Virus record (IMG/VR): IMGVR_UViG_3300021976_000010
Coordinates: 1-64,000 of that record
Origin: a virus
Strand: one strand, 5' to 3'
DNA length: 64,000 nt
This document shows, in pieces, positions 94-62,190 of this stretch. Numbering within the stretch: position 1 is the first letter of the stretch; every line of letters begins with the position of its first letter. The position numbers and the translations under genes were made by a program. The notes under the pieces were generated by a model. It worked only from the letters and a program-made list of their open reading frames with translations, was not told where the DNA came from and did not search any database.

Positions 94-125
94 CCATCAT
101 CAACCTCAAAACTGTGGAGACTACC

Positions 126-731: not shown

Positions 732-1108
732 CGATCTACCTACCCTATCCAGACTTTCGCCGCTCGGCCAAGTGCCTCACCGACGAGCACCTCAGGTTAC
801 AGCGCAATTGGATACGCAGCGCCATTCACGCGCTGACGGTGCCCGGGCGGCTGTCGCTGCGTGTGTACGATATCGACATCGGCGCGTGGGACGGGCACAT
901 GCGCTCGCTCCTGTTCCTCTGCGAGGCCACGCTCGACGAGCGAAAGCGACGCGGGATCGACGAGCGCGGCGTTACACCGTGGATGCTCGACCATGGTGAG
1001 GAGCCGCCCGCGTGGCTCGGCGATCCCGCGTTTCACGACGAGCAGAAGCGCAAACTTCTTCACCTTGCACCTTCGCACTACGGCAAGATGGGATGGAGAC
1101 TGTCGTGA
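728..1108 (+). CDS. pyrimidine-dimer DNA glycosylase (DenV/MSMEG_6728-like) family protein, divergent
   Basis: N-terminal MTIYLPYPDFRRSAKCL and C-terminal PPAWLGDPAFH...L...HY match the MQTFLPYPDF/PPWLGD pattern of this family. Confidence 0.6.
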   Translation: MTIYLPYPDFRRSAKCLTDEHLRLQRNWIRSAIHALTVPGRLSLRVYDIDIGAWDGHMRSLLFLCEATLDERKRRGIDERGVTPWMLDHGEEPPAWLGDPAFHDEQKRKLLHLAPSHYGKMGWRLS

Positions 1109-1308
1109 GATACATGCTGATGAAGACCACGCGCGATGGTCAGTGGTTCTACAAGAACGGCGAGGGGCGCGGTTGGAAGACCTCTCGCCGCGAGGGCACC
1201 ACGTACAGCGGCGAGGACTTTGCGCTGCGCGACCGTGCCAATGCGTTCACGCGCGAGGAGCGCGTGCTCATCACTGTCATCACGATAAAGCCCTACGAGA
1301 AGAGGTAA
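1105..1308 (+). CDS. hypothetical protein
   Basis: GTG overlaps upstream TGA; GGAG upstream. Confidence 0.55.
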   Translation: MRYMLMKTTRDGQWFYKNGEGRGWKTSRREGTTYSGEDFALRDRANAFTREERVLITVITIKPYEKR

Positions 1309-1310
1309 CA

Positions 1311-1502
1311 ATGACGAATCGCTTCCAGAAGCATGTCATCTGCGCCCTGATATGGTTGCTGACACTATGGTTCATGGCGTGGCTCGTCGCCCTGCCTATC
1401 GACTGGCGCATCGGTCTCACATGCTGGGTTGGCATGGTCGTTGACGACGTGGCCAAGTCCGTGGCCGGTCTCGACAAGAGGGAGTCAGACGGTGCCCATT
1501 GA
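1311..1502 (+). CDS. small membrane protein
   Basis: GAGG RBS; hydrophobic ICALIWLLTLWFMAWLVAL segment. Confidence 0.6.
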   Translation: MTNRFQKHVICALIWLLTLWFMAWLVALPIDWRIGLTCWVGMVVDDVAKSVAGLDKRESDGAH

Positions 1503-1944
1503 CATGACGAAGCTGGTCAGGATCATGCGCATGACCGAGAGCAGCTCCGACGGCGAGGCGCTCAACGCGTTGCGCCTAGCCAATCGCATGCTGAAGGCCG
1601 AGGGCAAGACATGGGAGGATATCATCGGCGCACGCGTAGGCGCGGCCAATCCGCTATCCCCCGACTATCGCCAGCCTCCGAGCCAGCGACGAACGGGGGA
1701 TACCAGTCGATGGGGCAAGCCCCAGTCACAGGAGCGTCCCACCGAGAACAAGGCCAAGGTGTACGACGAGAACATAGCTTCGATGCTCAATGCTCTCAGT
1801 GAGCGCAGGCACGATGTCAGCACTCTCATGTTCCTTGCCAGCATACGGGAGTTCTATGAGAAGAACGACTTTCTCACGCAGGCTCAGTACGACGCAATCA
1901 AGCGCATGCACGCGCGCGGACCAACGGGAGGGTTCAGGTGGTGA
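1492..1944 (+). CDS. hypothetical protein with an S..DGEALNA helical N-terminus
   Basis: GGAG RBS before GTG 1492; SSSDGEALNALRLANRML..EG.TWEDII resembles a motif I recall from alphaproteobacterial phage proteins. Confidence 0.65.
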   Translation: MPIDMTKLVRIMRMTESSSDGEALNALRLANRMLKAEGKTWEDIIGARVGAANPLSPDYRQPPSQRRTGDTSRWGKPQSQERPTENKAKVYDENIASMLNALSERRHDVSTLMFLASIREFYEKNDFLTQAQYDAIKRMHARGPTGGFRW

Positions 1945-2078
1945 ACATTGAATCGAGAGAGGATGCGCTGGTAGCACAGGAGCGCGAGTCACGGAACATG
2001 GTGCTGCTCGCGGTGCTGATTGCGACAGTGTCAACAGCCGTGGCCGTCATCATCTTCATATTCGAGGGGGCACCATGA
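1941..2078 (+). CDS. small single-TM protein
   Basis: GTGA coupling; VLLAVLIATVSTAVAVIIFIF hydrophobic stretch. Confidence 0.45.
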   Translation: MNIESREDALVAQERESRNMVLLAVLIATVSTAVAVIIFIFEGAP

Positions 2079-2177
2079 ACAAGCAGATGCTCGAGCTGCT
2101 CGCCGAGGAGATCAGCCTCATGCGACAGCTCATCAGGGTGAAACAGCGGCTGCTCACCGTAGGAAAGAGGAGGCTCT

Positions 2178-2396
2178 ATGCCAAGCCGAAGCGAAGACGA
2201 CTTCAAGCGCCTGTATCAGCAGGAGTGGCCGCCCGCCACGATGAGCGCTGAACAGTGCTACGCCAATCGACGCTGCCCCTACGGCGGCGGTCGTCACGAC
2301 TGCACGTGCAATGGCGAGTGCCCTTGGCGCATCAACAGGGAACGCGAGCTGGCCGCACGCCAGCGCAAGGTGAGGAGAGACGGACGATGGCTCTAA
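2178..2396 (+). CDS. small Cys-rich hypothetical protein
   Basis: AGGAGG RBS before ATG; several Cys/His. Confidence 0.5.
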   Translation: MPSRSEDDFKRLYQQEWPPATMSAEQCYANRRCPYGGGRHDCTCNGECPWRINRERELAARQRKVRRDGRWL

Positions 2397-2578
2397 CAAT
2401 CGAGAACATGCCGCGCGTCGAGGCGGTTGCTCACACGCTGGCCGAGCAGGCCATGACGAAGGGCAAGGCGTTCGCCGACAAGACGTTCGACAAGTGCAGC
2501 GCCGACACGCGCGCTCGCATGGCCGCGGAGTACATGCGTTTCGTGTGTGCGGTCATGGTGGACGCGAACAGCCGATGA
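2387..2578 (+). CDS. hypothetical protein
   Basis: AGGAG upstream; coupled to neighbours. Confidence 0.55.
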   Translation: MALTIENMPRVEAVAHTLAEQAMTKGKAFADKTFDKCSADTRARMAAEYMRFVCAVMVDANSR

Positions 2579-2772
2579 TAACCTGCGACGATATCGAGGG
2601 CCGATGCTGCTCTAGCTGTCACGAGGATGCCCAAGAGGGCTTCGACGGCGGCGAGATGTCGATGATATATGAGAGCGACGCGATGAACGCGCCGTGCTTC
2701 GCTCACGTGTGCTGCGCCAAGGTGGACGATGCGAGACGCATGCTGGCGTCGTACCTCAGAATGAAGAACTAG
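2575..2772 (+). CDS. small Cys-rich hypothetical protein
   Basis: ATGA overlap; CCSSCH...HVCC. Confidence 0.55.
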   Translation: MITCDDIEGRCCSSCHEDAQEGFDGGEMSMIYESDAMNAPCFAHVCCAKVDDARRMLASYLRMKN

Positions 2773-3087
2773 AGACCCTCTGGAGTTGGTGTCGGGGGAC
2801 AGCTGGCTCCAGTGGTACGCGTGGCGACCATGCATCGTCAGCGCGGGGCCTGTCCCGGGTGACTAACCTCCTGCCCGGGGCAGGCCGATGAACAAGAGAC
2901 CCTCTGGATGCGCACGTGGCCGCGCGGCGCGTGGTGTCCAGAGCTACGCGCGGGCGGTACAGGCCAGCGCCTCACCGATGAGTGGGGCCTCCTGCGCACC
3001 AAGGCCGCCAGCGCGGGCAGGCGTTGCCCCGGGTGCCTTGCCAGCCCCGCACCCGGGGCCGCCTGTACGGGCCGCGCTGGCCCATGG

Positions 3088-3131
3088 CAGGGCAGGGCAG
3101 GGGCGGGCAGGGCAGGGGCGGGCAGGGCAGG
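3088..3131 (+). repeat. 5-bp-period (A/G)GGGC tandem repeat with eight G3+ tracts (G-quadruplex potential)
   Basis: GGGCAGGGCAGGGGCGGGCAGGGCAGGGGCGGGCAGGG read directly. Confidence 0.85.
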
Positions 3132-3226
3132 CGCTGGCGGGTATTGGGGGCTACCCTAGTAGCCCGGGCGGGCAAAAGCCGCTGTACGGGGCGGGCTGGG
3201 CCGCCGTAGGGGTGCCTGTAAACGGT

Positions 3227-3248
3227 GCCCGGGCCGCCCGGGGCCGCC
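3227..3248. repeat. GCCGCCCGGG repeat family, copy at convergent gene junction
   Basis: GCCCGGGCCGCCCGGGGCCGCC; same unit at 38620-38637, 38797-38817 and 61574-61626. Confidence 0.7.
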
Positions 3249-3259
3249 ATTGGCGCATC

Positions 3260-3535
3260 TTAGGTTGTGCGGTGCAGCCCGCGCACCCGGACCGCCTCAG
3301 CGGCGTTTGTACCATTGAGTACGATGCGCACGTTGCCCGCCGCATATGCGCCGCTGTCATTGTGTCGCGCCATGCACCATTGACCCTTGCGTGGTCCTCG
3401 GTCATGCAGATGACCGCTTTCCTGCCATATCTGCAGCCATTCCCAAAATTCAAGTTCAAATGCAACACCACGCGCCTTCGCATGTTGTCTGTGTTTCTTA
3501 TACGCTTCGCGGTGATTGCTGTCTCGCTTATCCAC
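3260..3535 (-). CDS. HNH-like (beta-beta-alpha-Me) endonuclease
   Basis: AK.RG..F.L.F.EW..IW, CMARHNDSGAY..GNV.I...N; GTG start at 3535 with GGAAGG upstream. Confidence 0.7.
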   Translation of the reverse strand: MDKRDSNHREAYKKHRQHAKARGVAFELEFWEWLQIWQESGHLHDRGPRKGQWCMARHNDSGAYAAGNVRIVLNGTNAAEAVRVRGLHRTT

Positions 3536-3995
3536 GGCGAACGATCCTTCCCAATAGCAACCGCTGCACCTCGCTCCAGTCCCAACCGCCCGGGCCGCCA
3601 GCGCCCATGCAGCGCGCGTGACCACACTCCAGCCCGTCGTCGCGAAGCTCAACGACGAAACAACCGGGCACCATGTAGAGCTCATCGACCGAAGGGCCGC
3701 TTCGAGGGCCGCCCTTCGTCTGTCGTCGCACGGCGATCCACGTTCTACCGCCCATTCGGTAGCGTCGCTGATGCCAGCCGACCTGCATCGGCTTGAAGAC
3801 CACCGCGTATCCGCTCGTGGCCTTGCACTCCACCCATCCCTCGTTTCCCCCATCGTGAAGATAGTTGAAGTCCGGAACACCCTGCGTGACCAGACCAGTC
3901 TCAACCGTTGTGATCCAGAACCCTCGCGGCTTGAGGTGATTGCGCATCTCGGGGCGCAGGCCGTTGTCTGCCTTCTGCCGTGTCTTGCGCCTCAT
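3528..3995 (-). CDS. VRR-NUC/PD-(D/E)xK nuclease (Holliday junction resolvase-like)
   Basis: VET...GVPD...WVECK...Q..W motif. Confidence 0.8.
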   Translation of the reverse strand: MRRKTRQKADNGLRPEMRNHLKPRGFWITTVETGLVTQGVPDFNYLHDGGNEGWVECKATSGYAVVFKPMQVGWHQRRYRMGGRTWIAVRRQTKGGPRSGPSVDELYMVPGCFVVELRDDGLECGHARCMGAGGPGGWDWSEVQRLLLGRIVRRG

Positions 3996-4138
3996 GTCTC
4001 GTCCTCGTCTACTATGCGGATCGTGACCGCGTGCAGCTTGGTGATGCGAAGCAGCGCCTCGCGGTGCTCCTCGAACGTCGCGCGTGGTATGTAGAACTCG
4101 CCGTGATAGAGCACCTCTACGATTTCGTCGTCTTTCAT
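3992..4138 (-). CDS. hypothetical protein (48 aa, MKDDEIVEVLYHGEF)
   Basis: Fills the gap with ATGA overlaps on both sides. Confidence 0.55.
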   Translation of the reverse strand: MKDDEIVEVLYHGEFYIPRATFEEHREALLRITKLHAVTIRIVDEDET

Positions 4139-4461
4139 CGGAAGAACTTTCGTCCGAGCGCGGTGATGCTGTCATTCGCATCAATGAGGCCCCTGTCACG
4201 CAGACGCTTCAGCACCGGCCACGGCACCGTTCGGGGTTTCTTGTTGAGGCAACGCAGCATTGCCTCTCGCTCGTCGCTGCTCAGCTTCTCGTCCGTTGGC
4301 GTGTGCCGGTACTCGGATGGATCGAGCGTGACAACCTTTCCCCACTGCTCAGGCTTCATCATGTGACTCTCATCGATATAGACAGATGTGAAGTTCGTCT
4401 TGCTTCGCAGTATCTCCATGATCTTCTCGTCGATGTTCATGATATGCACAAATGGACTCAT
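4135..4461 (-). CDS. hypothetical protein with a winged-helix-like C-terminus
   Basis: LKRLRDRGLID...ITALGR; coupled overlaps. Confidence 0.6.
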   Translation of the reverse strand: MSPFVHIMNIDEKIMEILRSKTNFTSVYIDESHMMKPEQWGKVVTLDPSEYRHTPTDEKLSSDEREAMLRCLNKKPRTVPWPVLKRLRDRGLIDANDSITALGRKFFR

Positions 4462-4685
4462 GATAGCGCACTCCACACCGCGTACAGGAAGAACATGAGG
4501 CCGAACACCACGAAGCCGAGCGCGGCGTTGTTGCGCCGCTTCTCGCGCCTGCGCCATCTAGTGTCGACGGCCCTGCGCAGGGTGCCCGCCTGCTCGCAGT
4601 ACGGGAAGAGACAGTTGTTCAGACTGCGCGTGCCGATGATGCAGTCTTTGCTGATTGCGTCGCGATATGCGTGTGGGTCTGTCAT
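4458..4685 (-). CDS. small membrane protein
   Basis: AGGAG RBS; C-terminal TM ALGFVVFGLMFFLYAVW. Confidence 0.6.
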   Translation of the reverse strand: MTDPHAYRDAISKDCIIGTRSLNNCLFPYCEQAGTLRRAVDTRWRRREKRRNNAALGFVVFGLMFFLYAVWSALS

Positions 4686-4695
4686 GCGGTTTCTC

Positions 4696-5079
4696 CTATC
4701 GCAGGTCGATGGAGGGGATGATGGTGGATGGCTTGAACGTGATGCGATAGAAGTACGTGCCCACCTTGGCCGGCTCCATCTGCTCCGAGAAGTACGTGAC
4801 GTTGTCGCTGAGCCCGAGAAAATGTTTCTTGTACTGTCCTTCACCTGTCTTGCAAGTGACGGCGAGTTTCTTGTCTGAATGTTCCTGCGAGCACAGGCCC
4901 TCGATCGTGAGCATGTAGTCGTTGGTGATGCCGTTGTAGAATACGATGCGCCGGTTGATGCCGAAGTTGTCTGCGGCCTGCGAGAGATTGTACGAGGCGA
5001 CCTGCGCATCGTTGGAGCAGGCACCAATTGAGAAGCCGACAGTGGCGAGTGCGAAGGCGGTGAGTGCAAATGTCTTCAT
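4696..5079 (-). CDS. conserved phage lipoprotein (beta-rich)
   Basis: Signal peptide plus IGA-C lipobox; ADNF.INRRIVFYNGIT...YKKHFLGLSDNVTYF family motif. Confidence 0.8.
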   Translation of the reverse strand: MKTFALTAFALATVGFSIGACSNDAQVASYNLSQAADNFGINRRIVFYNGITNDYMLTIEGLCSQEHSDKKLAVTCKTGEGQYKKHFLGLSDNVTYFSEQMEPAKVGTYFYRITFKPSTIIPSIDLR

Positions 5080-5659: not shown

Positions 5660-6117
5660 GCCCGTGCTCCTGTCATCTTGACCCAGCCGCGTTTCATCAC
5701 TCGGCGTATGTCCCCGTTGGACACGCCGCGCATTTTCAGCTGCTCGAGGGTACGACCGCACTTGAACTCCGGGAACGTGAGTGCAAGGCGGGTGCCCCTG
5801 CGCAGCAAGACTTCGTCGCTGACCCACGTGACCACGGGCTGCGTCCCGATGGAAGGGGTCTGCTTGTTATACGACCACGTGAGGCGACACGCTGGTAGTA
5901 TCGTGATAGGCTTGCCGATGAGGCTCTCGGCGATTGCTCGCGATCGTGGAGTGCCTATGCGCACCAGACAGAGGACCAAGTCCGCCTGCGACAGGCCAGC
6001 GCGTGGACATTCTGTGATGAGAAGTGTGCTGCCAAGCGCGAAGTATCTTCGCACTCGGTAGTCAAGCGCGGGTGTTCGTGAGATGGCGGCAATCGCAGGC
6101 AGGTGACTACGGAGCAT
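5656..6117 (-). CDS. hypothetical protein, first gene of the leftward block
   Basis: ATG 6117 after GAAGG; basic C-terminus, possibly DNA-binding. Confidence 0.6.
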   Translation of the reverse strand: MLRSHLPAIAAISRTPALDYRVRRYFALGSTLLITECPRAGLSQADLVLCLVRIGTPRSRAIAESLIGKPITILPACRLTWSYNKQTPSIGTQPVVTWVSDEVLLRRGTRLALTFPEFKCGRTLEQLKMRGVSNGDIRRVMKRGWVKMTGARA

Positions 6118-6209
6118 GGTTGTGGCCTTCGGTGTTGAGCAGCGTGGAAGTTGTGGCAGCGCGGGGCAGGTTAGCGCCCGGGGCGTCCGCGGGGCCAGCC
6201 CAAAAGCGG

Positions 6210-6230
6210 TTATTAACAGCCTGTGCATAA
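6210..6230. promoter_or_regulatory. inverted pair of DnaA-box-like 9-mers
   Basis: TTATTAACA (6210-6218) and TGTGCATAA (6222-6230, = TTATGCACA on the minus strand). Confidence 0.5.
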
Positions 6231-6406
6231 CTATTTTTGGGGCTCGGTGCAGCGTCCCATGAAGGTGCTCGTTGCGAATTGGATTGGAAGGTTGCAATGA
6301 GGCGGGGGAACAGCCGCTAAAAGTGAAAGCGACCTACAGTACCAAGAACAACGGCACTGCAACACAGGTTGTAAAAACGCCCCCATAGCGCGCGCGGCGG
6401 CGCGTG

Positions 6407-6444
6407 GCGCGTGTGCAACGTACACGAGCACACACCGACGAGCG
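6407..6444 (+). repeat. 38-bp element, copy 1 (divergent promoter region)
   Basis: GCGCGTGTGCAACGTACACG-N6-CACCGACGAGCG; 34/38 identical to 40458-40495. Confidence 0.85.
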
Positions 6445-6576
6445 GGCGATATTGCGCGAGCGGTATCTATATTCCTGCGATTGCGGCCTGGACGGCTGGC
6501 GTGGCACAAGCTTCAGCCATGGCCCCGGGCCGGTTGTGTTGGCAGGGCCTCGGGGTTCTCACTCAACCGGTTCCAC

Positions 6577-38521: not shown

Positions 38522-38619
38522 CGCGCTCACCGGCGCGCGGCGGGCAGGCGCGCACCCGCACGCGTAGCGCCCGCGCGTGCGCGAGGGCTGGGGGCGGCCT
38601 GCCAGCCCGGGGCACCTTG

Positions 38620-38817
38620 CCCCGGGGCCGCCCGGGCGGGCTAGGGGCGGGGCTGGCAGGGCCGCCAGAGCCCGTTTCCGGGGCGCGTGGTGCGCGCAAT
38701 TGGCCCGGGGGCTGGCCTAGTACCGGGCATTCCCAGCACTGAATCCCTTGCCAGCCTAATGTGATCCTAGAAGGGTGCGGCAAACCGCCACACTTGGCCG
38801 CCCGGGGCCGCCCGGGC
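38620..38817. repeat. GCCGCCCGGG repeat family copies in the convergent intergenic region
   Basis: CCCCGGGGCCGCCCGGGC (38620-38637) and GCCGCCCGGGGCCGCCCGGGC (38797-38817). Confidence 0.65.
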
Positions 38818-38828
38818 GCAACCTAACG

Positions 38829-40349
38829 TTATATCCAAGCCCGCATACGCTCACCCGTTACCTGCGTCGCCAAGTCATACTTATTGCGCAGGGCCGTCAC
38901 GAAACGATAGTCGATAGTTCCCTCTGTCATCAGGTCCATGTACGTGACTCGATGAAGCTGCCCCTTGCGATGAGTGCGGTCCTCAGATTGTTGCCGCTGC
39001 TCCAAGTCGTAAGTGTTTGAGTCGTAGATGTTGAGGTTCGCGTTGACCCAAGTGTTGCCACGCATGCCCGCACCCTGCGACGCTATCATTATCACGCACT
39101 CGGGATCACCGAGGAACCGCGCCTCTTCCAGATGGCGCGTCGACCGATTCTGGCCGTAGAATTTTGCTACCGCCTTCGGTCCATACTCCTTCTTCAACTT
39201 CTTTTCCAGCATCTCTATCCGGTGAATGAACGGGCTCCAGATAATCACCTTGCCCGTGTGCTCGTCGATGATATTGATGATCTCCTGCGTGCGGTTCTCC
39301 GGCAGGTCACGTATGACGCCCTCGTCGTCCATGACGTAGCCCAGATTGATCTGATGCAGTCGTATCATCATCTGGAGCATCATGTCAACGGAGACGTAGT
39401 GACCGCGCGCAATCTCTGTCGTCGCATTCTCCTTCAGCTCCTTGTACGCCCGAGCCTGCTCCTTGGTGTGCTGCACGTCGCGCGTCATGAACATCTTCGG
39501 CTCGAGGTCGAGGCACTCCTCCTTGAGCACGCGATAACTGTACGGCGCGATGCGCTCGTGTATCTCCTCGATGTTCTTGTAGCCGACGATCACCTCGATC
39601 TTGCGCCCGGTGCCCTCGACCTGCTCGCCGCCGTCGTCATAGTCCGCATCGACGATCATCTTCTTCGTGATGGCGTATTTCTTCTTGAAGCCGAAGAACG
39701 AGGGGCTACCTAAAATTTTCCAATCCAAAAAGTTGAATTGACCCCACGCGTCGAGTGGTGATCGAGGGGTGAGCAGCCCGGTGAGAATTCGTCGGCACGC
39801 CGCGCGCTTCCCAACGTTGGTGATGTAGCGCCCGCGCAGACTGTCGCCGTTCTTGATCGTGGTGCTCTCGTCGACAGCCATGTAGACGTCGCCGCTCTCG
39901 AGATACGCCTCCACTAGGTCCTGCGCCTTCTCGACGGTGGACAGTGCCTCGACATTGACGAACAGCGCCCGGGGCCTGTCGCGTACGCGCAGGAACTCCG
40001 AGAGGCTGTCGCGGTGCGCAACACCCGCACCGCTTCGCCAGTGATTGACGAGCATGCGCTCGCGCAGCTCGTCGGGCAGGTGCACGTCCAGCTCCGAGTT
40101 TGCCAGTCCATTCTTGCCCGCGAACCAGTTACGATACGAGCCGGCAGGCGCTATCACCAGCAGATTTGGCAGCTCGGCATTCACAGCCCCCGCTCCCCAC
40201 TCATCCAGAACGACCTTCGACTTGCCGGTGCCCATGTCCATGAGATACGCGAAGTTGTCGTCTCGTGACGGCTTCGATGGTGCGTTGTACGCCGCGAGTC
40301 GAGCCTTCACCTGATGTGCCATCGGCACGGTCTTGGGAACGTAGAGCAT
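38829..40349 (-). CDS. SNF2-family (SF2) helicase
   Basis: DMGTGKS, VDES, LTG.....PLD.W.QF.FL, QSEDR.HR.GQ. Confidence 0.92.
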   Translation of the reverse strand: MLYVPKTVPMAHQVKARLAAYNAPSKPSRDDNFAYLMDMGTGKSKVVLDEWGAGAVNAELPNLLVIAPAGSYRNWFAGKNGLANSELDVHLPDELRERMLVNHWRSGAGVAHRDSLSEFLRVRDRPRALFVNVEALSTVEKAQDLVEAYLESGDVYMAVDESTTIKNGDSLRGRYITNVGKRAACRRILTGLLTPRSPLDAWGQFNFLDWKILGSPSFFGFKKKYAITKKMIVDADYDDGGEQVEGTGRKIEVIVGYKNIEEIHERIAPYSYRVLKEECLDLEPKMFMTRDVQHTKEQARAYKELKENATTEIARGHYVSVDMMLQMMIRLHQINLGYVMDDEGVIRDLPENRTQEIINIIDEHTGKVIIWSPFIHRIEMLEKKLKKEYGPKAVAKFYGQNRSTRHLEEARFLGDPECVIMIASQGAGMRGNTWVNANLNIYDSNTYDLEQRQQSEDRTHRKGQLHRVTYMDLMTEGTIDYRFVTALRNKYDLATQVTGERMRAWI

Positions 40350-40384
40350 TTGAAACTCGCAGTGAGCGGGGGGACTGGCTGCAC

Positions 40385-40413
40385 AGCATGCCAGCCTTCC
40401 GGGGCCAGAACAA
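40385..40413 (-). promoter_or_regulatory. sigma70-like promoter for the SNF2 gene
   Basis: TTGTTC-TGG..N17-CATGCT on the minus strand; same family as 40533, 40703 and 55373. Confidence 0.55.
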
Positions 40414-40457
40414 GGGTAGCGGTTTGAAAACCCCTAACGCGGGCGCGCGCCCTCTAT

Positions 40458-40495
40458 GCGCGTGTGCAACGTACACGGATACGCACCGACGAGCG
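40458..40495 (+). repeat. 38-bp element, copy 2 (divergent promoter region)
   Basis: 34/38 identical to 6407-6444. Confidence 0.85.
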
Positions 40496-40532
40496 CGCGT
40501 ATAGGCCCCCGTTGTTCTGTTTTGCTGGGGGC

Positions 40533-40561
40533 TTGTTCTGGCGCGCGGTGCGTGGCACATT
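40533..40561 (+). promoter_or_regulatory. sigma70-like promoter
   Basis: TTGTTC-TGGCGCGCGGTGCGTGG-CACATT. Confidence 0.45.
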
Positions 40562-40677
40562 GGTTTCGCGGCATTGGGTTGAGCGCCAATGTGGTAGCGA
40601 GCAGGGGTCGCACGGCATGTTTCCACAGGTGCCGCTGCGGCCCCTGTTTTATTGGGCCGCCCGCACCGCTGCGTCTG

Positions 40678-40731
40678 TTATGCACAGGGCAAACACTCCA
40701 GGTTTTTCTGGTGCGTGTCTTGTGGCATACT
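40678..40731 (+). promoter_or_regulatory. DnaA-box-like site plus sigma70-like promoter of the replication operon
   Basis: TTATGCACA (40678-40686) then TTTTTC-N17-CATACT (40703-40731). Confidence 0.55.
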
Positions 40732-40777
40732 ATGCGCCCGGTTTGCATTGGCACCCGGCGCTCACTGTGGAGATCAA

Positions 40778-48520: not shown

Positions 48521-48671
48521 CTGCTCAAAGTGCGACGCTCTCATGGAGCAGCAAGAGGACGACCCATCAGTCGGTATCACTGGCTGCTGGACATGTACCA
48601 ACTGTGACCACGTCGAGCCTCTCGAGGACGACGATCACTATCTCGACGATTGCTCAAGGGAGGACAGGTGA
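48510..48671 (+). CDS. small zinc-ribbon protein
   Basis: MPRNCSKC...WTCTNC; coupled to the kinase gene via TGATG. Confidence 0.55.
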   Translation: MPRNCSKCDALMEQQEDDPSVGITGCWTCTNCDHVEPLEDDDHYLDDCSREDR

Positions 48672-49663
48672 TGTCTAGACGAGTTACCAAGGCACAGCAG
48701 AAGGGACTCGACGCGTTCTTCGAGTACGCGCGCAAGCGTCATCTGTGCTATATCATGAAGAACGCAGACCCAAGCTGGAAGATCGACGACGATATTCTCA
48801 GTCACTTCAGTTTCTGCAACGTGTTTCGCGAGCTCGACAAGACCACCATCTGGTTTGCCGAGAACGTGCGCAAGCCGCTCGACAAGGAGAAGCACCCGGG
48901 CCTGATACTGGCCACGGTGCTGTTTCGCATGTTCAACCGGATCGAGACCGGCGAGGCCATGTTCTGCGATGATAATCTGCTTGGCGACGCCAGCGCGTTT
49001 CACGAGTTCTACGCGACCGGCAAGACCGCACCGCTGCGCAGGGCCATCATCAACCGGCTCGGCAAGAAGGGACCATATGTCACGGGCTCGTACATCATCG
49101 CAGGCCCGGGCGGCATGTCGAAGCTCGACGGCATGCTAAAGGTGGTCAAGGACTTCCATGACTCGACGGCCGAGTTAGACCTTGTCCAGTCCGACTGGAC
49201 ACTCGCCAACGAACGTATGGAGCTACACAAGTTCTCACTCCAGCAGGCGCATTCGTGGCTTCGTCAGTTCAGCTTCATGGGCACGTTCCACGCATACGAG
49301 ATAGTCACCGATCTGCGGTGGACACACCTGCTTCGCCGCGCCCCCGATATCCATTCGTGGGCGAATCCAGGCCCGGGGTGCAGGCGGGGGTTGAACGTGC
49401 TCATGGGTCGTGATAAGGACGCGCGGGAGTGGACAAACAACGATGAGCTGCTCAACGAGATGAACATAATTCTTGAGGAGTCGACGACGAAACGGCAATG
49501 GCAGGCGTTCGCCGGGCAGATGAATGCCAAGTATCCAAAGCTGAGTACACCATTCTCATGGGAAATGCGTGACGTCGAGCACACGCTATGCGAATTCGAC
49601 AAGTACGAGCGAACGCGGCACGGTGAGGGCAGGCCGCGCGGACGTTATCGGGGACACGAGTAG
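48671..49663 (+). CDS. 5-hydroxymethyluridine DNA kinase (5-HMUDK, aGPT-Pplase1 family)
   Basis: D.IL..F.FCNV.RE.D.TT, LFR.FN..ET, TG.YI, G.F.AYE..TDL, PGPG..RGL, D.EH.LCEFDKY.R...G.GRPR. Confidence 0.88.
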   Translation: MSRRVTKAQQKGLDAFFEYARKRHLCYIMKNADPSWKIDDDILSHFSFCNVFRELDKTTIWFAENVRKPLDKEKHPGLILATVLFRMFNRIETGEAMFCDDNLLGDASAFHEFYATGKTAPLRRAIINRLGKKGPYVTGSYIIAGPGGMSKLDGMLKVVKDFHDSTAELDLVQSDWTLANERMELHKFSLQQAHSWLRQFSFMGTFHAYEIVTDLRWTHLLRRAPDIHSWANPGPGCRRGLNVLMGRDKDAREWTNNDELLNEMNIILEESTTKRQWQAFAGQMNAKYPKLSTPFSWEMRDVEHTLCEFDKYERTRHGEGRPRGRYRGHE

Positions 49664-55877: not shown

Positions 55878-56196
55878 TGATGAATGTTCGTGCATCGGTG
55901 AACTGGAACAGCTCCATCTTGCTGACCAGTACGCCGAGCAGGTTGCCTGCGAATTCGTAGAGACTTTTGGTGGAGTGTGCCCATCGATGCTGGACTACGT
56001 GACCGAGAGAATCATTGCTCGACTCGTGCACGTGGCCGTCATGAATCGCGACGAGAACCTGATCGTCAGCGAGCGCAAGACGCTCGATGCGACAGCCGAC
56101 TATATCTTCAGGCTCAGCAAGACTGCACCGGCTACCCTGAAGATTATCATGGACGATGCAGCACGAAAAGGAGAACCGGCGAATGCGAGTAATTGA
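55864..56196 (+). CDS. hypothetical protein
   Basis: GGAGG RBS; fills the gap. Confidence 0.55.
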   Translation: MAQSDDECSCIGELEQLHLADQYAEQVACEFVETFGGVCPSMLDYVTERIIARLVHVAVMNRDENLIVSERKTLDATADYIFRLSKTAPATLKIIMDDAARKGEPANASN

Positions 56197-57265
56197 AGTC
56201 GAAGACGTGAACGAGGCGTACTGGCGAGGTATGAACATACTGCGCACGGATGGTATCGACGAGGACAGCCGCAACGGGCCGGTTCGCGTTATGCCTGAGC
56301 CGGTGACCACGGTGTACCGCAAGCCGCGTCAGCGCGTGCTTTTCGACATGAAGCGTGCGGCCAATCCGTTCTTCCACCTGTTCGAGTCGCTGTGGATGCT
56401 GGCCGGTCGTGACGACGTGGGAGCGTTGAACCGCTACATCACCGACTTCGGCACGCGCTTCGCCGAGTCCGACGGCACTGTTCACGGCGCATACGGGCAC
56501 CGCTGGCGCAAGGCGTTCGGCTTCGACCAGCTCGACGCCATCGTCGCGCGGTTGCGCGCCAATCCGCGAGACCGGCAATGTGTTCTGCAGATGTGGGACG
56601 CGCGGATGGAGGACGGTTCTGACGCTGGGACTGACTACTTTGGTGAGAACGATCTGCTCGGCGTCTGGAAGGACAGGCCGTGCAATACGCAGGTCTACTT
56701 CCGCGTTCGCGAGAATGCACCGGAGGAGAAATGGGCGGCGGGCGGCGCAGTGCCAGAGCCAGTACTCGACATGATGGTCACGTGTCGCAGCAACGACATT
56801 GTCTACGGTGCATACGGCGCGAACGCGGTGCACTTCAGTATCCTTCAGGAGTACATGGCAGGTCGCATCGGCGTGCGCGTCGGGAACATGGAACAGGTCT
56901 CGTTCAACTACCATGCCTATCACGACGTTCTCGCGCGCGTGGGGTGCCCCGCGTATCTCGAGACCTACACCGGGCATAAGCTGAAGGCGCTCCCGATCGG
57001 GAACGCCTGGGAAGCGTGGGACGCTGATCTCATGTATTTCATGTCGTGGCACAAGACCATGACCGAGACCGGCGTCACCGAGGCTGGCACATATATCAAC
57101 AAGTGGTTCAAGTTCACAGCTGAGCCGCTGTTCATTGCTCACTACAAGTGGAAGAGCGCCATGCACAAGGAGGCGAAGACAATGGCGCAGCTCATCGAGT
57201 CCGAAGACTGGCGCTTCGCGGCGCTCATGTGGTTCGAGACTCGTACGAATGCGAGGAGCCGATGA
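56183..57265 (+). CDS. thymidylate synthase homolog, probable dUMP hydroxymethylase
   Basis: SRNG, ANPFFH..E..WMLAGR, GAYG.RWR, KD.PCN, RSND..YG..GAN.VHF (Asn indicates dUMP specificity), H.Y. Confidence 0.85.
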   Translation: MRVIEVEDVNEAYWRGMNILRTDGIDEDSRNGPVRVMPEPVTTVYRKPRQRVLFDMKRAANPFFHLFESLWMLAGRDDVGALNRYITDFGTRFAESDGTVHGAYGHRWRKAFGFDQLDAIVARLRANPRDRQCVLQMWDARMEDGSDAGTDYFGENDLLGVWKDRPCNTQVYFRVRENAPEEKWAAGGAVPEPVLDMMVTCRSNDIVYGAYGANAVHFSILQEYMAGRIGVRVGNMEQVSFNYHAYHDVLARVGCPAYLETYTGHKLKALPIGNAWEAWDADLMYFMSWHKTMTETGVTEAGTYINKWFKFTAEPLFIAHYKWKSAMHKEAKTMAQLIESEDWRFAALMWFETRTNARSR

Positions 57266-59439: not shown

Positions 59440-61568
59440 AACCGCGGCGACAGGTGATGAACCCGGATCAGATACCACTCATCACACCAGACAGCGCGTG
59501 GACGGTGCCGACGGAGCTCCCGGATCTCAGTCGCATCGACGCCATCGCCATTGACACTGAGGACTACGATCAAGGGCTGCTCGATGGGCGCGGCCCGGGC
59601 TGGGCATTCAAGTCCAAGTCTTCCGGGGGCTACTTGGCAGGCGTGAGCGCGGCGTGGTGGCAGGATGGCGAGGTGCGCAGCATCTATGTTCCCATCAACC
59701 ACCCTGATACCAACTGCATCGATCTATCACGGGCGAAGAAGTGGGTCGCGCATCTACTGAACCGCAAGAAGGGACAGCGAGCTATCTTCTGCAATGCCGA
59801 CTTTGATCTTGGCTGGATCGAGAATTCAATCAGCGGCCTTGGCATCGCACTTCCCGACGGCGAATTCATCGACGATGTCGGTGCGCAGGCCATGCTCATC
59901 GACGAGAATCGCAGGGCCAAGAAGGGGCAGACATCGGCCTATTCCCTCGACGCGATCGCTGAATGGTGCGGCGTCGAGATGAAGGACGAAGTGGCGCTTC
60001 GCGAGGCCGCCGCCGCGTATGGATACAAGGGAAAGGATGTCAAGAGGTTCATCGCGAAGCTGCCCGCGCGCTACGTTGGTCCATACGCGGAACAGGACGC
60101 CCGCTCCACGCTGCTCGCGCACGAAGTAATGGTGCCAATCATCGATGAACAGGAACTCAACGACGCATACGACCTCGAGATGGGGCTCGTGCCAGTAGTA
60201 CACGCCATGCGGAAGCGTGGCATACGTGTCAACGAAGACCGGCTCTGGCAGCTTCACGATAACCTCATGGATCAGCACCAGAAAGCGTGCGACAAGATAT
60301 ACGACATCACGAAGATGCGTGTATCCATTGATGAAATCAGGCAGAAAGACTGGCTCATCAGGGTCTGTGATATGCACGGCATCACCGAGTATATCACTGG
60401 AGAAAACGCGCTCGGTGAGAACGAGACCGAGTTCACCAAGAACTGGATGCGCGCGTCGCAGCATCCGCTGCCCCGGGCAATCGCAGAGGCAAAGCAGTGT
60501 CACGAGGCCGCCACGAAGTTCGTGAAGACCTACCTCATCGACTCTATCGTGGACGGGCGCATCCACGCGAACATCAACCAGTTCAAGACGGAAGACGGCG
60601 GCACCAAGACGCACCGTTTCTCCTATTCCGATCCACCATTGCAGCAGATGCCGAGCCGGCCAGACCCTGTCGAGGGCTGGTTCATCACTGAATTCATCGC
60701 GGCGGCAATCCGCACCGCATTCGAGCCCGAGCCGGGGGAGCTATGGTTCGCCCCCGATTATTCGCAGCAGGAATACAGGCTCATCGTTCACTACGCATAT
60801 CTCATGGAATGTGCCAAGGCCGACGACGCCGTGCGAATGTATCTCGAGGACCCGAACACCGACTTCCACAATCTGGTGGTCGCTCTCACTGGCCTAACGC
60901 GGCGCAGGGCAAAGGACGTGAACTTCGCCAAGGCGTATGGAGCCGGCATTAAGAAGTTTGCGTTGATGACAGGAATGTCACTAGAAGAAGCCGAGAAGGT
61001 GATGGGGCAGTACGATAGGGAAATGCCGTTCGTCAAGGAGCTCAACGATATTTGCGATCGCAGCGCGGCCGAGCGTGGTTACATACGCATGATCGACAAG
61101 GCGCGTTCGCACTTCGACGAATGGGAGCCGCGTTGGTTGGACCGCTCCGAGCGTCAGCGTGGGTACGCCGAGTACTTCGCGATGAACCCGTGTCGCCACG
61201 AAGAAGCGCTCGAACGCTGCGAAACGAAGAATCACCCGTGGTTCAAGAAGGCACTGCGCCGCGCAGATACACGCAAGGCGATGAATCGTCTCATTCAGGG
61301 CAGTGCAGCGAGACAGACGAAGCGCGCGATGCTGTCGTGTTGGCGCGCGGGATATCTCGCGATGCTGCAAATGCACGATGAACTCGCATTCTCTCTGATG
61401 AAAGAGAAAGACGGAAAGATCATCGGTGAAATAATGCGCAACGCTATCAAGATCAGTGTGCCGATGCGCGTCGACGAAGAATATGGCGAGACTTGGGGAA
61501 CGGCAAAATACGCGTTCGCAGACGCGCGCAGGGCGGGCAAGGGTGCCGCGCCCGCGCTGGCGGCCTAG
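59424..61568 (+). CDS. polA: family A DNA polymerase with 3'-5' exonuclease domain
   Basis: IDTE, N..FD, YA..DA; T.RFS...P.LQQ.P, DYSQQE.R, R..AK..NF...YG, IQGSAA..K, HDE. Confidence 0.95.
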   Translation: MVKSVKPRRQVMNPDQIPLITPDSAWTVPTELPDLSRIDAIAIDTEDYDQGLLDGRGPGWAFKSKSSGGYLAGVSAAWWQDGEVRSIYVPINHPDTNCIDLSRAKKWVAHLLNRKKGQRAIFCNADFDLGWIENSISGLGIALPDGEFIDDVGAQAMLIDENRRAKKGQTSAYSLDAIAEWCGVEMKDEVALREAAAAYGYKGKDVKRFIAKLPARYVGPYAEQDARSTLLAHEVMVPIIDEQELNDAYDLEMGLVPVVHAMRKRGIRVNEDRLWQLHDNLMDQHQKACDKIYDITKMRVSIDEIRQKDWLIRVCDMHGITEYITGENALGENETEFTKNWMRASQHPLPRAIAEAKQCHEAATKFVKTYLIDSIVDGRIHANINQFKTEDGGTKTHRFSYSDPPLQQMPSRPDPVEGWFITEFIAAAIRTAFEPEPGELWFAPDYSQQEYRLIVHYAYLMECAKADDAVRMYLEDPNTDFHNLVVALTGLTRRRAKDVNFAKAYGAGIKKFALMTGMSLEEAEKVMGQYDREMPFVKELNDICDRSAAERGYIRMIDKARSHFDEWEPRWLDRSERQRGYAEYFAMNPCRHEEALERCETKNHPWFKKALRRADTRKAMNRLIQGSAARQTKRAMLSCWRAGYLAMLQMHDELAFSLMKEKDGKIIGEIMRNAIKISVPMRVDEEYGETWGTAKYAFADARRAGKGAAPALAA

Positions 61569-61573
61569 CACCT

Positions 61574-61626
61574 GCCCGGGGCCGCCCGGGGCCGCCCGGG
61601 GCCGCCCGGGGCCGCCCGGGGGCCGC
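61574..61626. repeat. tandem 10-mer GCCGCCCGGG, four perfect copies plus partial flanks
   Basis: Perfect units at 61581-61620, immediately after the polA stop. Confidence 0.9.
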
Positions 61627-61776
61627 TCCCAGCTGCCCCGGCACCCCTTGATACCAGTGCGACGACCCTCCGGCGGCCCATATTTGGCCAGCCATGCGTC
61701 CAGCCTCCAGCCTAGTACCCTACAGCCTCCAGTCCACGGACCGGCCCTACGGCCCTCTGGAGGGCTCCATGGACTG

Positions 61777-61837
61777 TTTACTATTTGTTAACCATATTTG
61801 GTTGTAGGCTGCACAAGCGCGCGTGCGCGTATATAGT
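61777..61837 (+). promoter_or_regulatory. CtrA-like binding site upstream of a sigma70-like early promoter
   Basis: TTTA-CTATTTG-TTAACCAT (61777-61795; consensus TTAA-N7-TTAAC); CTGCAC-N17-TATAGT (61809-61837). Confidence 0.6.
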
Positions 61838-62190
61838 GTCCATAGGTTACTCCACCGGCCTTGGTTTGCAGCCCCCTAGTTTTGGGCATGGCCCTAACGG
61901 CAACGCCAGCCGCTAGCCTTGTGGCCCCTAGCGGGCTCCACTCAGACGCGGCTCCGCGCATGTGGCAAGGCAAAACGGTGGCGCGGCGGGTAGAACGGCT
62001 CCCCAACAGTTTATTGCGCAAGCATAACGTTGGCCCCTAGCAAGGGCCACGGCGCATGCAAGGGGCCGCGCTGGTTTCCCGGGTCGTTAGTAGCAAGCCG
62101 CATCCTGTAGGACAGTGGCTTGCCGAAGGCATCACAACATCAAGGCAGCGCCGTCATATACCGCGCTGGCATATTGCAAGTTCACCACGG

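What the first reader, a model, noticed from the sequence alone, without database searches (positions are those of the whole stretch)
2992..3257. TC/GA dinucleotides are purged from regulatory DNA: a possible footprint of the modified context
Seen (manual count): 2992-3257 (266 bp) has no TC or GA at all despite dozens of A/T bases. The same holds for 6188-6243, 61523-61626, 61774-61838 (CtrA box plus promoter), 61853-61936 and 62002-62076. In 61774-62076 I count only about 8, mostly TCC, whereas a typical coding line (9121-9180) has 9 in 60 bp. Known: hypermodification in 5hmdU phages is partial and depends on sequence context. Inference: the bulky modification goes on T in 5'-TC (perhaps not TCC). 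Sites read by host proteins on incoming DNA avoid it, while coding DNA is rich in it for restriction protection.
Basis: partly seen in the sequence, partly recalled or inferred. Interest (0 to 1): 0.8.

Follow-up and report, generated by a model that had tools for sequence, protein, structure and literature searches.

The report
TC/GA-free islands at phage operon junctions
An uncultured soil phage that chemically decorates its thymines keeps the DNA between its operons almost free of the two-letter step TC (GA on the other strand), and so do its relatives; this suggests that something in the infected cell reads or marks that step, most plausibly the phage's own DNA modification, but no modification has been measured.

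Summary
After correction for local composition, the TC/GA-free runs are extreme: the longest is 268 bp against a shuffle maximum of 101, z≈15. No other dinucleotide behaves this way apart from the universal TA deficit.

The purge is not general to regulatory DNA. It is confined to the five junctions between transcription units. Twenty-seven other gaps are normal, and a recurring promoter-like word (TTGTTCTGG) keeps its TC.

Relatives at 52-75% PolA identity keep TC/GA-free blocks at the same junctions, although the sequences there no longer align. The trait fades with distance. It is absent from six cultured hmU-modifying phages and from SH-Ab 15599, whose modified context (TG) has been mapped.

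The window does encode an hmU synthase and tailoring enzymes, but no recognisable 5-hmdU kinase. My initial kinase call was wrong: that protein is a Pplase2-type transferase.

The coding-side TC excess is strand-asymmetric and ordinary, so "enriched for protection" is not supported.

Best reading (about 40%): selection keeps the junctions free of the context that receives the bulky thymine adduct. This is unproven because only contigs exist for the sample.

Earlier notes of this scan describe similar TC/GA-free islands in several other uncultured phages.

The parts
2991..3258 (.). Main TC/GA-free block (268 bp, 59 A/T bases). It lies in the convergent junction between the rightward operon ending at 2772 and the leftward operon ending at about 3260. 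It contains an 11-bp perfect hairpin (3026-3059) and a 15-nt G-run tandem (3083-3141).
   Evidence: The TC-free run (2991-3258) and the GA-free run (2981-3290) coincide. The block folds no better than shuffles.
5965..6576 (.). Divergent junction between the leftward operon B and the structural operon C. TC/GA O/E is 0.71. Free runs lie at 6187-6244 and 6347-6426, and a top-strand TC-only-free run lies at 6270-6466.
38522..38834 (.). Convergent junction between the structural operon and the SNF2 gene. TC/GA O/E is 0.37. Four adjacent free runs of 56, 85, 54 and 64 bp are present. It carries copies of the gap-specific word GCCGCCCGGGGC.
40350..40777 (.). Divergent junction between SNF2 and the replication/modification operon. 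TC/GA O/E is 0.52. Free runs lie at 40623-40674 and 40719-40762, and a GA-only-free run at 40600-40770. The surviving TCs lie in the promoter-like word TTGTTCTGG/TTTTTCTGG (40385-40413 minus strand, 40533, 40703).
61522..62077 (.). Junction after PolA, at the head of the small-gene (early-like) operon. Free runs lie at 61522-61627, 61773-61839, 61852-61937, 61954-61993 and 62001-62077. They are interrupted by a TCC-rich 145-bp segment (61628-61772).
   Evidence: A block at the syntenic position recurs in seven relatives.
61575..61625 (+). Tandem GGCCGCCCGG repeat immediately after the PolA stop. It is the densest copy of a junction-specific GC-rich word: 8 of 9 genomic copies lie in the five junctions.
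61810..61837 (+). The only sigma-70-like promoter match in the junctions (TGCACA-16-TATAGT). It lies inside a TC/GA-free run and is preceded by TGTTAACCAT.
56156..57265 (+). Thymidylate-synthase homolog, the presumed dUMP hydroxymethylase (source of 5-hmdU).
   Evidence: Pfam PF00303, E 3.5e-17. PHROG 5131, E 9e-89. 39% identity to the M6 enzyme.
48650..49663 (+). PF18723 protein, homolog of M6 gp55 (aG/PT-PPlase2, the DADT type of DNA transferase). It is the only DNA-level tailoring enzyme shared with the relative that also has the islands. It is not the kinase.
   Evidence: Table 3 of PMC5889632.
50044..53916 (+). TAGT-like glycosyltransferase (50044-50895), two proteins without family matches (50853-51911 and 51908-52882), and a radical SAM/SPASM enzyme (52879-53916). 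These are the lineage-specific part of the modification cassette.
   Evidence: They are absent from relative G001.

Best explanation
The five inter-operon junctions are kept free of the dinucleotide that serves as the sequence context for this phage lineage's bulky thymine adduct, i.e. T followed by C on either strand. As a result they stay as plain hmU/T DNA in an otherwise heavily decorated genome. About 36% of T+A positions in the window lie in TC/GA.

The likely reason is that these junctions are where DNA must be read or reshaped: promoter and regulator sites, and GC-rich hairpin or G-run elements at gene ends.

Shown: the islands themselves, their duplex symmetry, their restriction to junctions, their conservation in position without conservation of sequence, and the presence of an hmU-based modification cassette.

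Inferred: that TC is the modified context, that the context reader is a shared DNA-level enzyme (the PF18723 transferase is the only candidate common to both island-bearing genomes), and that the adduct would interfere at the junctions.
For: 1. TC/GA-free runs are extreme after correction for local composition. z is 14.5-16 here and 9.7-11.8 in the 75%-PolA relative G001, while the composition twin CT/AG gives z about 0-1.
2. Only the five junctions are affected. Intra-operon gaps are normal: GA 125 observed against 140 expected, TC 131 against 123.
3. The junction sequences of G001 do not align with ours, yet they carry TC/GA-free runs of 160, 157, 77 and 69 bp at syntenic places. Seven relatives at 49-75% PolA identity have their longest runs just after PolA, some in A/T-rich, unrelated sequence. 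Whole-genome z declines with distance: 16, 9.7, 7.4, 5.3, 4.0, 1.0, 0.6. This pattern indicates ongoing selection rather than inheritance of one sequence.
4. TC-free and GA-free runs share boundaries at the convergent junctions, so the property belongs to the duplex.
5. There is no genome-wide TC mutational pressure. NTC codons are preferred (C3 fraction 0.77) and T|C is the most enriched codon junction.
6. The cassette is present: hmU synthase plus PF18723 transferase, with different downstream tailoring enzymes in the two phages.
7. Precedent from papers: thymidine modification in phages depends on the 3' neighbour. TG/TC in M6, ViI and PhiW-14 (PMC6449724); TG nearly fully occupied in SH-Ab 15599 (PMC13458397); NTC preferred by the phage T-dioxygenase 5mYOX97 (PMC13229309).
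Against: - No modification has been measured. The source is a 2018 soil metagenome held only as contigs.
- No 5-hmdU DNA kinase (PF18748) is detectable here or in G001, so the enzyme that sets the context in the characterised systems is missing or unrecognisable.
- Phages with the same core enzymes show no islands for any dinucleotide: PhiJL001, PaMx11, M6, Ab18, FP1 and Epa5. SH-Ab 15599 does not purge its known TG context. Purging is therefore not a general consequence of context-specific modification.
- The largest islands lie at convergent gene ends, where it is unclear why an adduct would matter.
- A recurring promoter-like word keeps a TC in its -35-like hexamer.
- No gene's presence tracks the trait across seven clade genomes.
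- The palindrome-avoidance test was uninformative.
Confidence: 0.4

Rival explanations
1. Another duplex-level reader of TC/GA, not thymine modification, imposes the avoidance. Candidates are a host or phage nuclease or nickase, a defence system, a DNA-binding factor with a two-base specificity, or a modification of the G in 5'-GA-3' (as 7-deazaguanine insertion by DpdA does in phage CAjan).
For: The data show only that the duplex step TC/GA is selected against at the junctions; they do not say which base or which agent is involved. GA is a mapped modification motif for preQ0 in CAjan (PMC7544227). The absence of islands in other hmU-modifying phages fits an agent that is specific to this lineage or its host.
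Against: This genome has no DpdA/TGT, QueC or QueD, and the same profiles hit 10-14 of the 14 control genomes. It has no TET/JBP dioxygenase. No candidate nuclease or methyltransferase was identified. A nuclease or defence that reads TC/GA should select genome-wide, yet coding DNA is TC/GA-rich, including at synonymous and codon-junction sites.
Confidence: 0.2
2. The constraint acts through transcription rather than on resting duplex DNA. Either TC is avoided on the template strand where RNA polymerase initiates and terminates, or GA is avoided in untranslated RNA (leaders and trailers) that ribosomes do not protect from a GA-preferring ribonuclease. At convergent junctions both strands are transcribed, which would produce the symmetric islands.
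For: Upstream of all five operons, sense-strand GA is more depleted than sense-strand TC (O/E 0.37 against 0.59). The same direction is seen in all seven relatives examined. Four long single-dinucleotide runs next to operon starts are all GA-free on the sense strand: 61773-61945, 40600-40770, 6492-6636, and 6270-6466 on the minus strand.
Against: The asymmetry is modest, and TC is depleted too. Transcribed but untranslated intra-operon gaps are not depleted. The islands include promoter DNA upstream of the likely transcription start, such as 61773-61839, which lacks both TC and GA. Transcript ends are unknown.
Confidence: 0.12
3. The islands are a by-product of what the junctions are built from, namely GC-rich palindromic words, G-run tandems and a few promoter words that happen to lack TC/GA. 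No agent that reads TC/GA is involved.
For: The junctions share a small vocabulary. Eight of the nine copies of GGCCGCCCGG, and CCCGGG at about eight times its genomic density, lie in the five junctions. The main block contains a 15-nt tandem. With the composition-matched event test, only one block is individually significant. Large gaps of control phages also drift toward fewer TC/GA.
Against: Shuffles that preserve local composition never approach the observed runs (null maximum 101 against 268 observed). A/T-rich islands without the GC words are equally free of TC/GA: 61773-62077 and 6187-6426 here, a 149-bp block in L033 and a 90-bp block in L042. The property persists in relatives whose junction sequences are unalignable. 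CT/AG, built from the same four bases, is present at normal levels: 81 occurrences against 0 TC/GA in the free blocks.
Confidence: 0.08
4. The islands are a local mutational footprint of a TC-specific cytosine deaminase (TC to TT, GA to AA) acting where DNA is transiently single-stranded, by analogy with APOBEC3 footprints in animal viruses.
For: Inside the free blocks TT and AA are enriched (O/E 1.92 and 1.71) while TC and GA are absent.
Against: The genome encodes no CDA-type deaminase. NTC codons and T|C codon junctions are enriched, not depleted. The largest islands are 74-77% GC. A mutational process would not spare the 27 other gaps.
Confidence: 0.05

Closest known systems
Context-dependent thymidine hypermodification from 5-hmdU in phages M6, ViI, PhiW-14, PaMx11 and SH-Ab 15599 (PMC5889632, PMC8989533, PMC6449724, PMC13458397)
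   Same: It shares the ThyA-like dUMP hydroxymethylase and a PF18723 (aG/PT-PPlase2, DADT-type) DNA transferase. In those systems only part of the T is hypermodified, and the choice depends on the 3' neighbour (TG or TC).
   Different: No PF18748 kinase is found here. The downstream enzymes differ: glycosyltransferase-like proteins and a radical SAM/SPASM enzyme here, a UbiE-type methyltransferase in relative G001. None of the seven characterised or cultured phages tested has context-free islands. No paper in the library describes such islands.
Phage T-dioxygenase 5mYOX97 with NTC preference (PMC13229309)
   Same: It is a phage enzyme that modifies thymine in DNA and reads C as the 3' neighbour, which is the context inferred here.
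   Different: It belongs to a different enzyme family (TET/JBP), and no such gene is present in this genome. It makes hmU after replication, whereas here hmU is expected to enter through the nucleotide pool.
7-Deazaguanine (preQ0) DNA modification at GA and GGC motifs by DpdA in phage CAjan (PMC7544227)
   Same: It is a bulky phage DNA modification whose motif is the same duplex step (GA/TC).
   Different: The modified base is G. This genome has no DpdA/TGT, QueC or QueD.
Restriction-site and palindrome avoidance in phage genomes
   Same: Both are selection-driven under-representation of short words, read as a footprint of enzymes that act on DNA.
   Different: Classical avoidance is genome-wide and concerns 4-6-bp palindromes. 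Here a dinucleotide is removed only from five junctions and is abundant elsewhere. For comparison, M6 and FP1 show the classical genome-wide pattern.
Base J (glucosyl-hmU) at strand-switch regions of kinetoplastid polycistronic units (from general knowledge, not checked in a paper here)
   Same: Both involve an hmU-derived bulky base and a link to the boundaries of polycistronic transcription units, including convergent and divergent junctions.
   Different: In kinetoplastids the modified base is concentrated at the boundaries. Here the presumed target context is missing from them. The comparison is an analogy between eukaryotic chromatin and a phage.
APOBEC3 TC-depletion footprints in animal virus genomes (from general knowledge)
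   Same: The same dinucleotide is depleted and TT is enriched.
   Different: Those footprints are mutational and genome-wide. Here synonymous NTC sites are enriched, and the depletion is local and conserved in position.

Membership tests
5-HMUDK-dependent thymidine hypermodification system (Lee 2018/2021) | ThyA-family dUMP hydroxymethylase that supplies 5-hmdU | tested here: met
   The protein at 56156-57265 matches PF00303 (E 3.5e-17) and PHROG 5131 (E 9e-89). It is 39% identical to the M6 enzyme. Its activity has not been assayed.
5-HMUDK-dependent thymidine hypermodification system (Lee 2018/2021) | 5-hmdU DNA kinase (PF18748, as in M6 gp54) | tested here: not met
   A six-frame search of the complete genome and of relative G001 finds no hit at E<=1. 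tblastn with M6 gp54 finds nothing. The only Walker A motifs are in the terminase, UvrD and one 153-aa ORF. Caveat: the profile also misses SH-Ab 15599 and scores PaMx11 below the cut-off, so this negative result is weak.
5-HMUDK-dependent thymidine hypermodification system (Lee 2018/2021) | aG/PT-PPlase-type (HhH) DNA transferase | tested here: met
   The protein at 48650-49663 matches PF18723 with E 6e-41 across its whole length. It is 34% identical to M6 ORF055 (gp55), which matches the same family with E 8e-56.
5-HMUDK-dependent thymidine hypermodification system (Lee 2018/2021) | Partial, context-dependent replacement of T by a hypermodified base in virion DNA | not testable with these tools
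   Only Logan contigs of a 2018 soil metagenome hold this DNA. No isolate, raw signal or LC-MS data exist.
Motif avoidance as a footprint of a DNA-modifying or DNA-cutting enzyme | Depletion beyond what base composition and coding explain | tested here: met
   Local-composition shuffles give z=14.5-16 and the CT/AG twin gives z about 1. In junctions defined by gene calls, TC/GA:CT/AG is 0.70, against 1.18 in small gaps (p=4e-5).
Motif avoidance as a footprint of a DNA-modifying or DNA-cutting enzyme | Strand symmetry (both the word and its reverse complement are avoided) | tested here: met
   TC-free and GA-free runs coincide at the convergent junctions in both genomes. A mild sense-strand GA bias appears near operon starts.
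Motif avoidance as a footprint of a DNA-modifying or DNA-cutting enzyme | Avoidance co-varies with presence of the enzyme across relatives | tested here: inconclusive
   All island-bearing genomes carry the hmU synthase and PF18723, but so do seven genomes without islands. No gene tracks the trait. No clade member lacking the cassette was available.
7-Deazaguanine (DpdA) DNA modification at GA | DpdA/TGT-family transglycosylase and preQ0 synthesis genes | tested here: not met
   PF01702, PF06508 and PF01242 give no hit at E<=1 in the complete genome. The same profiles hit 10-14 of the 14 control genomes.
TC-specific deaminase mutational footprint | TC depletion at neutral sites genome-wide, including synonymous positions | tested here: not met
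   The C3 fraction is 0.77 after T, against 0.67-0.71 after other bases. The T|C codon-junction O/E is 1.58. No CDA-family deaminase is present.

The most novel reading that the evidence does not exclude
A lineage of hmU-hypermodifying soil phages has evolved 'modification-free islands'. Selection has erased the adduct's target dinucleotide (TC) from every boundary between transcription units. On this reading the raw sequence alone reveals both the modification motif and the DNA that must stay unmodified, which would be a genome-encoded, epigenetic-like partition of a viral chromosome into decorated and plain DNA.
Probability: 0.35. Interest if true: 0.8.

Novelty: new variant of a known kind. 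Interest (0 to 1): 0.6.

Why it matters
The sequence contexts of phage thymidine hypermodifications are known only roughly, from restriction panels on a few cultured phages. Current sequencing platforms do not map them well (PMC13458397).

If the TC/GA-free islands are footprints of the modified context, plain genome sequence could be used to predict modification motifs in uncultured phages. It could also locate the sites where bulky adducts are not tolerated, such as promoters, operators and structured gene-end elements. That would make the question of how host RNA polymerase and regulators cope with hypermodified DNA directly testable.

Even if the agent turns out to be something else, a conserved, position-specific ban on one dinucleotide implies an unrecognised factor with two-base specificity in these infections.

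Tried and rejected
- **Geometric run-length E-values**. I dropped them as a measure because they are badly calibrated for heterogeneous composition and for rare dinucleotides. Local-bin shuffles replaced them.
- **Fixed 500-bp window after PolA** across 70 loci. It was too crude because gap offsets differ between relatives.
- **Event-label permutation, TC/GA against CT/AG**. It is valid but has low power in GC-rich DNA. Only one block passes.
- **My initial label of 48650-49663 as 5-HMUDK.** I took it from the Pfam name HMUDK_hel, and it was wrong. The protein is the M6 gp55 / Pplase2 type; the kinase family is PF18748.
- **Palindrome avoidance split by TC/GA content**. It was uninformative, because control phage PhiJL001 shows the same small difference.
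- **Gene presence/absence against trait strength**. There was no signal.
- **One large structured RNA in 2985-3262**. Folding z-scores are about 0. Rfam and tRNA scans of the window are empty.
- **Spurious Shine-Dalgarno avoidance.** Rejected because CGA and GAC are more depleted than GGA and GAG.
- **Read-level test of modification.** It was not possible. The two runs that hold this DNA are a 2018 soil metagenome kept as contigs, so I did not use read laying.
- **The look-up of encoding contigs.** I reached relatives through the search for related loci and the fetch from genomes instead.
- **Megablast of the window against GenBank phages.** No match.
Full report
**What the window is.** The window is the first 64 kb of a single 76,974-bp contig, which CheckV rates as 100% complete. 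It came from a 2018 soil metagenome. GC content is 59.5%. The contig is a tailed phage. It has a large terminase at 8905-10440, a portal fused to an Acb1 domain at 10389-12680, a family A DNA polymerase at 59454-61568, and SNF2 and UvrD helicases.

A codon-usage gene map shows six transcription modules:
- A: 114-2772, plus strand
- B: 3260-5964 (possibly to about 6297), minus strand
- C: 6577-38521, plus strand, structural genes
- D: SNF2, 38829-40349, minus strand
- E: 40778-61568, plus strand, replication and DNA modification
- F: 62317 onward, plus strand, many small genes

The five junctions between these modules are 2773-3259 (convergent), 5965-6576 (divergent), 38522-38828 (convergent), 40350-40777 (divergent) and 61569-62316 (tandem).

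**The observation.** The 268-bp stretch 2991-3258 has 59 A/T bases and no TC or GA. Over the whole window, TC/GA is the commonest non-CpG step at 14.6% of positions.

Simple run-length statistics overstate the case, because several blocks are 74-77% GC. I therefore used three better-controlled tests.

1. Shuffling within 40-bp bins preserves local composition. The longest TC/GA-free run is 268 bp against a null mean of 69 and a null maximum of 101. The sum of the five longest runs gives z=14.5, and 16.0 in a repeat run. Among the ten symmetrised dinucleotides, the only other outlier is TA, which is depleted in all the phage genomes tested.
2. CT/AG has exactly the same mononucleotide expectation as TC/GA. 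It shows nothing (z about 1). Inside the free blocks there are 81 CT/AG and 0 TC/GA.
3. A strict event-permutation test passes only 2992-3217 on its own: 0 against 25 events, score 19.7, null maximum 15.6.

With gaps defined by gene calls alone, TC/GA:CT/AG is 0.70 in large gaps, 1.18 in small gaps and 1.35 in coding DNA (Fisher p=4e-5). Control phages drift mildly in the same direction (0.79-1.10). The distinctive feature is therefore the clustering into stretches of complete absence, not the average depletion.

**Where it is and is not.** The depletion is not a property of noncoding or regulatory DNA in general. Only the five inter-operon junctions are depleted relative to their own composition (O/E 0.37-0.71, each P<=0.001). 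The 27 other gaps of 44-407 bp have O/E of about 1. Pooled intra-operon gaps are normal: GA 125 observed against 140 expected, TC 131 against 123.

All four TCN trinucleotides are depleted in the junctions (0.42-0.73). TCG falls most relative to coding and TCC least. The few TCs that survive in the divergent junctions are not random. At least one class of protein-read site therefore keeps a TC.

**Symmetry.** At the convergent junctions, the TC-free and GA-free runs have nearly the same boundaries:
- here, 2991-3258 and 2981-3290
- in the relative, 59526-59686 and 59530-59697
- in the relative, 24563-24722 and 24535-24763

This indicates a property of the duplex. Near operon starts there is a modest asymmetry. 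Sense-strand GA has O/E 0.37 against 0.59 for TC over the 250 nt upstream of the five operons, and all seven relatives examined show the same direction.

**Anatomy of the islands.** The junctions share a GC-rich vocabulary. Eight of the nine genomic copies of GGCCGCCCGG lie in them, each next to a gene end, and there is a tandem array at 61575-61625. The main block has an 11-bp perfect hairpin (3026-3059) and a 15-nt G-run tandem (3083-3141) with G-quadruplex potential. As a whole it folds no better than dinucleotide shuffles (z -0.3 and -0.1).

Rfam and tRNA scans of the window are empty. Only one sigma-70-like promoter match is found in the junctions, at 61810-61837, and no canonical intrinsic terminators are found in the islands. 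The canonical -35 hexamer TTGACA itself contains GA.

The A/T-rich islands (61773-62077 and 6187-6426) contain none of the GC words, yet they are equally free of TC/GA. A repeat-vocabulary by-product therefore cannot be the whole explanation.

**Relatives.** GenBank phages hold no close relative. IMG/VR holds a 73,980-bp contig (G001) with 65-76% nucleotide identity in coding blocks. Its junction sequences do not align with ours. It nevertheless has TC/GA-free runs of 160, 157, 77, 69, 67, 64, 61, 55 and 54 bp at the syntenic junctions, with z=9.7-11.8.

A PolA profile recovered 79 loci. Seven independent relatives at 49-75% PolA identity have their longest TC/GA-free runs directly after PolA. 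These include a 149-bp block in L033 and a 90-bp block in L042 that are A/T-rich and unrelated in sequence.

Whole-genome z falls with distance: 16.0, 9.7 (G001), 7.4 (G002), 5.3 (G006), 4.0 (G003), 1.0 (G004) and 0.6 (G005). Six cultured outgroup phages give -5.0 to -0.7. The CT/AG control stays between -3 and +2 in all of them. The trait is thus real, lineage-restricted, and maintained through sequence turnover.

**The modification machinery.** The window encodes the following:
- a ThyA-family enzyme, the presumed dUMP hydroxymethylase (56156-57265)
- a PF18723 protein (48650-49663)
- a TAGT-like glycosyltransferase (50044-50895)
- two proteins without family matches
- a radical SAM/SPASM enzyme (52879-53916)
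- a NUDIX protein (44620-45069)

I first read PF18723 ('HMUDK_hel') as the 5-hmdU DNA kinase. That was wrong. The protein has no Walker A motif and is homologous to M6 ORF055, which is gp55, the aG/PT-PPlase2 of Table 3 in PMC5889632. The M6 kinase gp54 belongs to PF18748.

PF18748 is not found in this genome or in G001. The profile also misses SH-Ab 15599, however, so the negative result is weak.

G001 shares the hmU synthase and the PF18723 protein (51% identity). It replaces the glycosyltransferase and radical SAM genes with other genes, including a UbiE-type methyltransferase. The two genomes with the strongest islands therefore probably make different adducts from a common first step.

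**Testing the interpretation.** Papers support the general principle that phage thymidine modification depends on the 3' neighbour:
- TG/TC was inferred for M6, ViI and PhiW-14 (PMC6449724) and for the commercial kinase on SP8 DNA (PMC7653180).
- TG is nearly fully occupied in SH-Ab 15599 (PMC13458397).
- NTC is preferred by the phage T-dioxygenase 5mYOX97 (PMC13229309).

I found no paper that describes context-free regulatory islands.

- The phages with the same core enzymes show no islands for any dinucleotide: PhiJL001, PaMx11, M6, Ab18, FP1 and Epa5. SH-Ab 15599 does not purge TG (z=-3.6).
- The largest islands lie at convergent gene ends.
- A promoter-like word keeps its TC.
- The claim that coding DNA is enriched in TC for protection fails. 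Coding TC/GA frequency is like that of the controls. At codon junctions T|C is enriched (1.58 here, 2.04 in G001) but its complement G|A is not (0.95 and 1.08). The excess is thus strand-specific and looks like a codon-pair effect.
- The palindrome-avoidance test was uninformative.

**Rivals.**
- A G-in-GA modification of the CAjan type (PMC7544227) has no enzymatic basis here. There is no DpdA/TGT, QueC or QueD, and the control genomes were positive for these profiles.
- A TET/JBP dioxygenase is absent.
- A TC-specific deaminase footprint is contradicted by the preference for NTC codons and by the absence of a deaminase gene.
- A transcription-level or RNA-level constraint is suggested by the mild sense-GA bias. 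It does not explain promoter DNA that lacks both steps, or the normal intra-operon gaps.
- An unidentified duplex-level reader of TC/GA cannot be excluded.

**Verdict.** TC/GA-free islands are confined to the five inter-operon junctions, are conserved in position across a clade of uncultured soil phages, and are beyond what composition explains.

Its claim about coding enrichment is not supported, and the kinase it implicitly relies on is not detectable.

Earlier notes of this scan report similar TC/GA-free islands in several other uncultured phages, most of them with thymine-modification genes. I treat those notes as leads, not as evidence.

Noticed in passing
window 61786-61795; L032 about 12683-12692; L037 about 12473-12483: The word TGTTAACCAT recurs in the post-PolA junction of this phage and two relatives whose junctions otherwise do not align. 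It contains TTAACCAT, which I recall as a CtrA half-site. This hints at an alphaproteobacterial host and a conserved regulator site at the head of the early-like operon.
   Followed up: partly
window 3083-3141: Three tandem 15-nt units of the type GGGCAGGGCAGGGGC lie on the plus strand at the convergent junction, giving strong G-quadruplex potential. A shorter copy of the same word occurs in the relative's syntenic junction (L001, about 11720-11745).
   Followed up: partly
window 48650-49663: The Pfam name PF18723 'HMUDK_hel (5-hmdU DNA kinase, helical domain)' is misleading for stand-alone proteins. This family covers M6 gp55 / aG/PT-PPlase2 (DADT type), whereas the actual kinase (M6 gp54) is PF18748. 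The name can cause false 'kinase present' calls.
   Followed up: yes
window 10389-12680: The portal protein (PF06381) is fused in frame to an Acb1 anti-CBASS phosphodiesterase domain (PF23474, E 6e-37, residues 565-709).
   Followed up: no
whole coding DNA of the genome and of G001: At codon junctions, T|C is the most over-represented pair (O/E 1.58 here, 2.04 in G001) while T|A and T|T are strongly avoided. In PaMx11, Ab18 and Epa5 the favoured partner of a third-position T is G (1.26-1.43). The cause is unknown. It is strand-specific, because G|A is not enriched.
   Followed up: partly
M6 (L018-L020) and FP1 (L024-L027) genomes: Both cultured phages avoid 6-bp palindromes strongly, and those containing TC/GA most of all (pooled O/E 0.23-0.26, with 13-16 sites absent despite expectations of 4-36). 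PaMx11 instead lacks GC-only palindromes. In the present genome only GGGCCC (expected 17) and GGTACC are absent.
   Followed up: no
window 48094-48500: This is the one large gap (407 bp, GC 0.50) that is not TC/GA-depleted (O/E 1.08). It lies inside the replication/modification operon, just upstream of the PF18723 gene. It may hold an unrecognised small gene or an element of different origin.
   Followed up: no
L105 (about 10-22 kb) and L108: Two distant PolA-bearing viral contigs show other extreme dinucleotide-free runs: a 324-bp AC/GT-free run in L105 (z about 17) and a 282-bp AA/TT-free run in L108. I did not examine them, and they may be simple repeats.
   Followed up: no
L077 (about 15659 and 21458-21700) and L068/L069 (about 9269 and 21928): More distant clade members (42-43% PolA identity, GC 0.47-0.49) also have significant TC/GA-free runs (z 5-6.3), but not next to PolA. 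The trait may be wider than the close lineage and differently placed.
   Followed up: no
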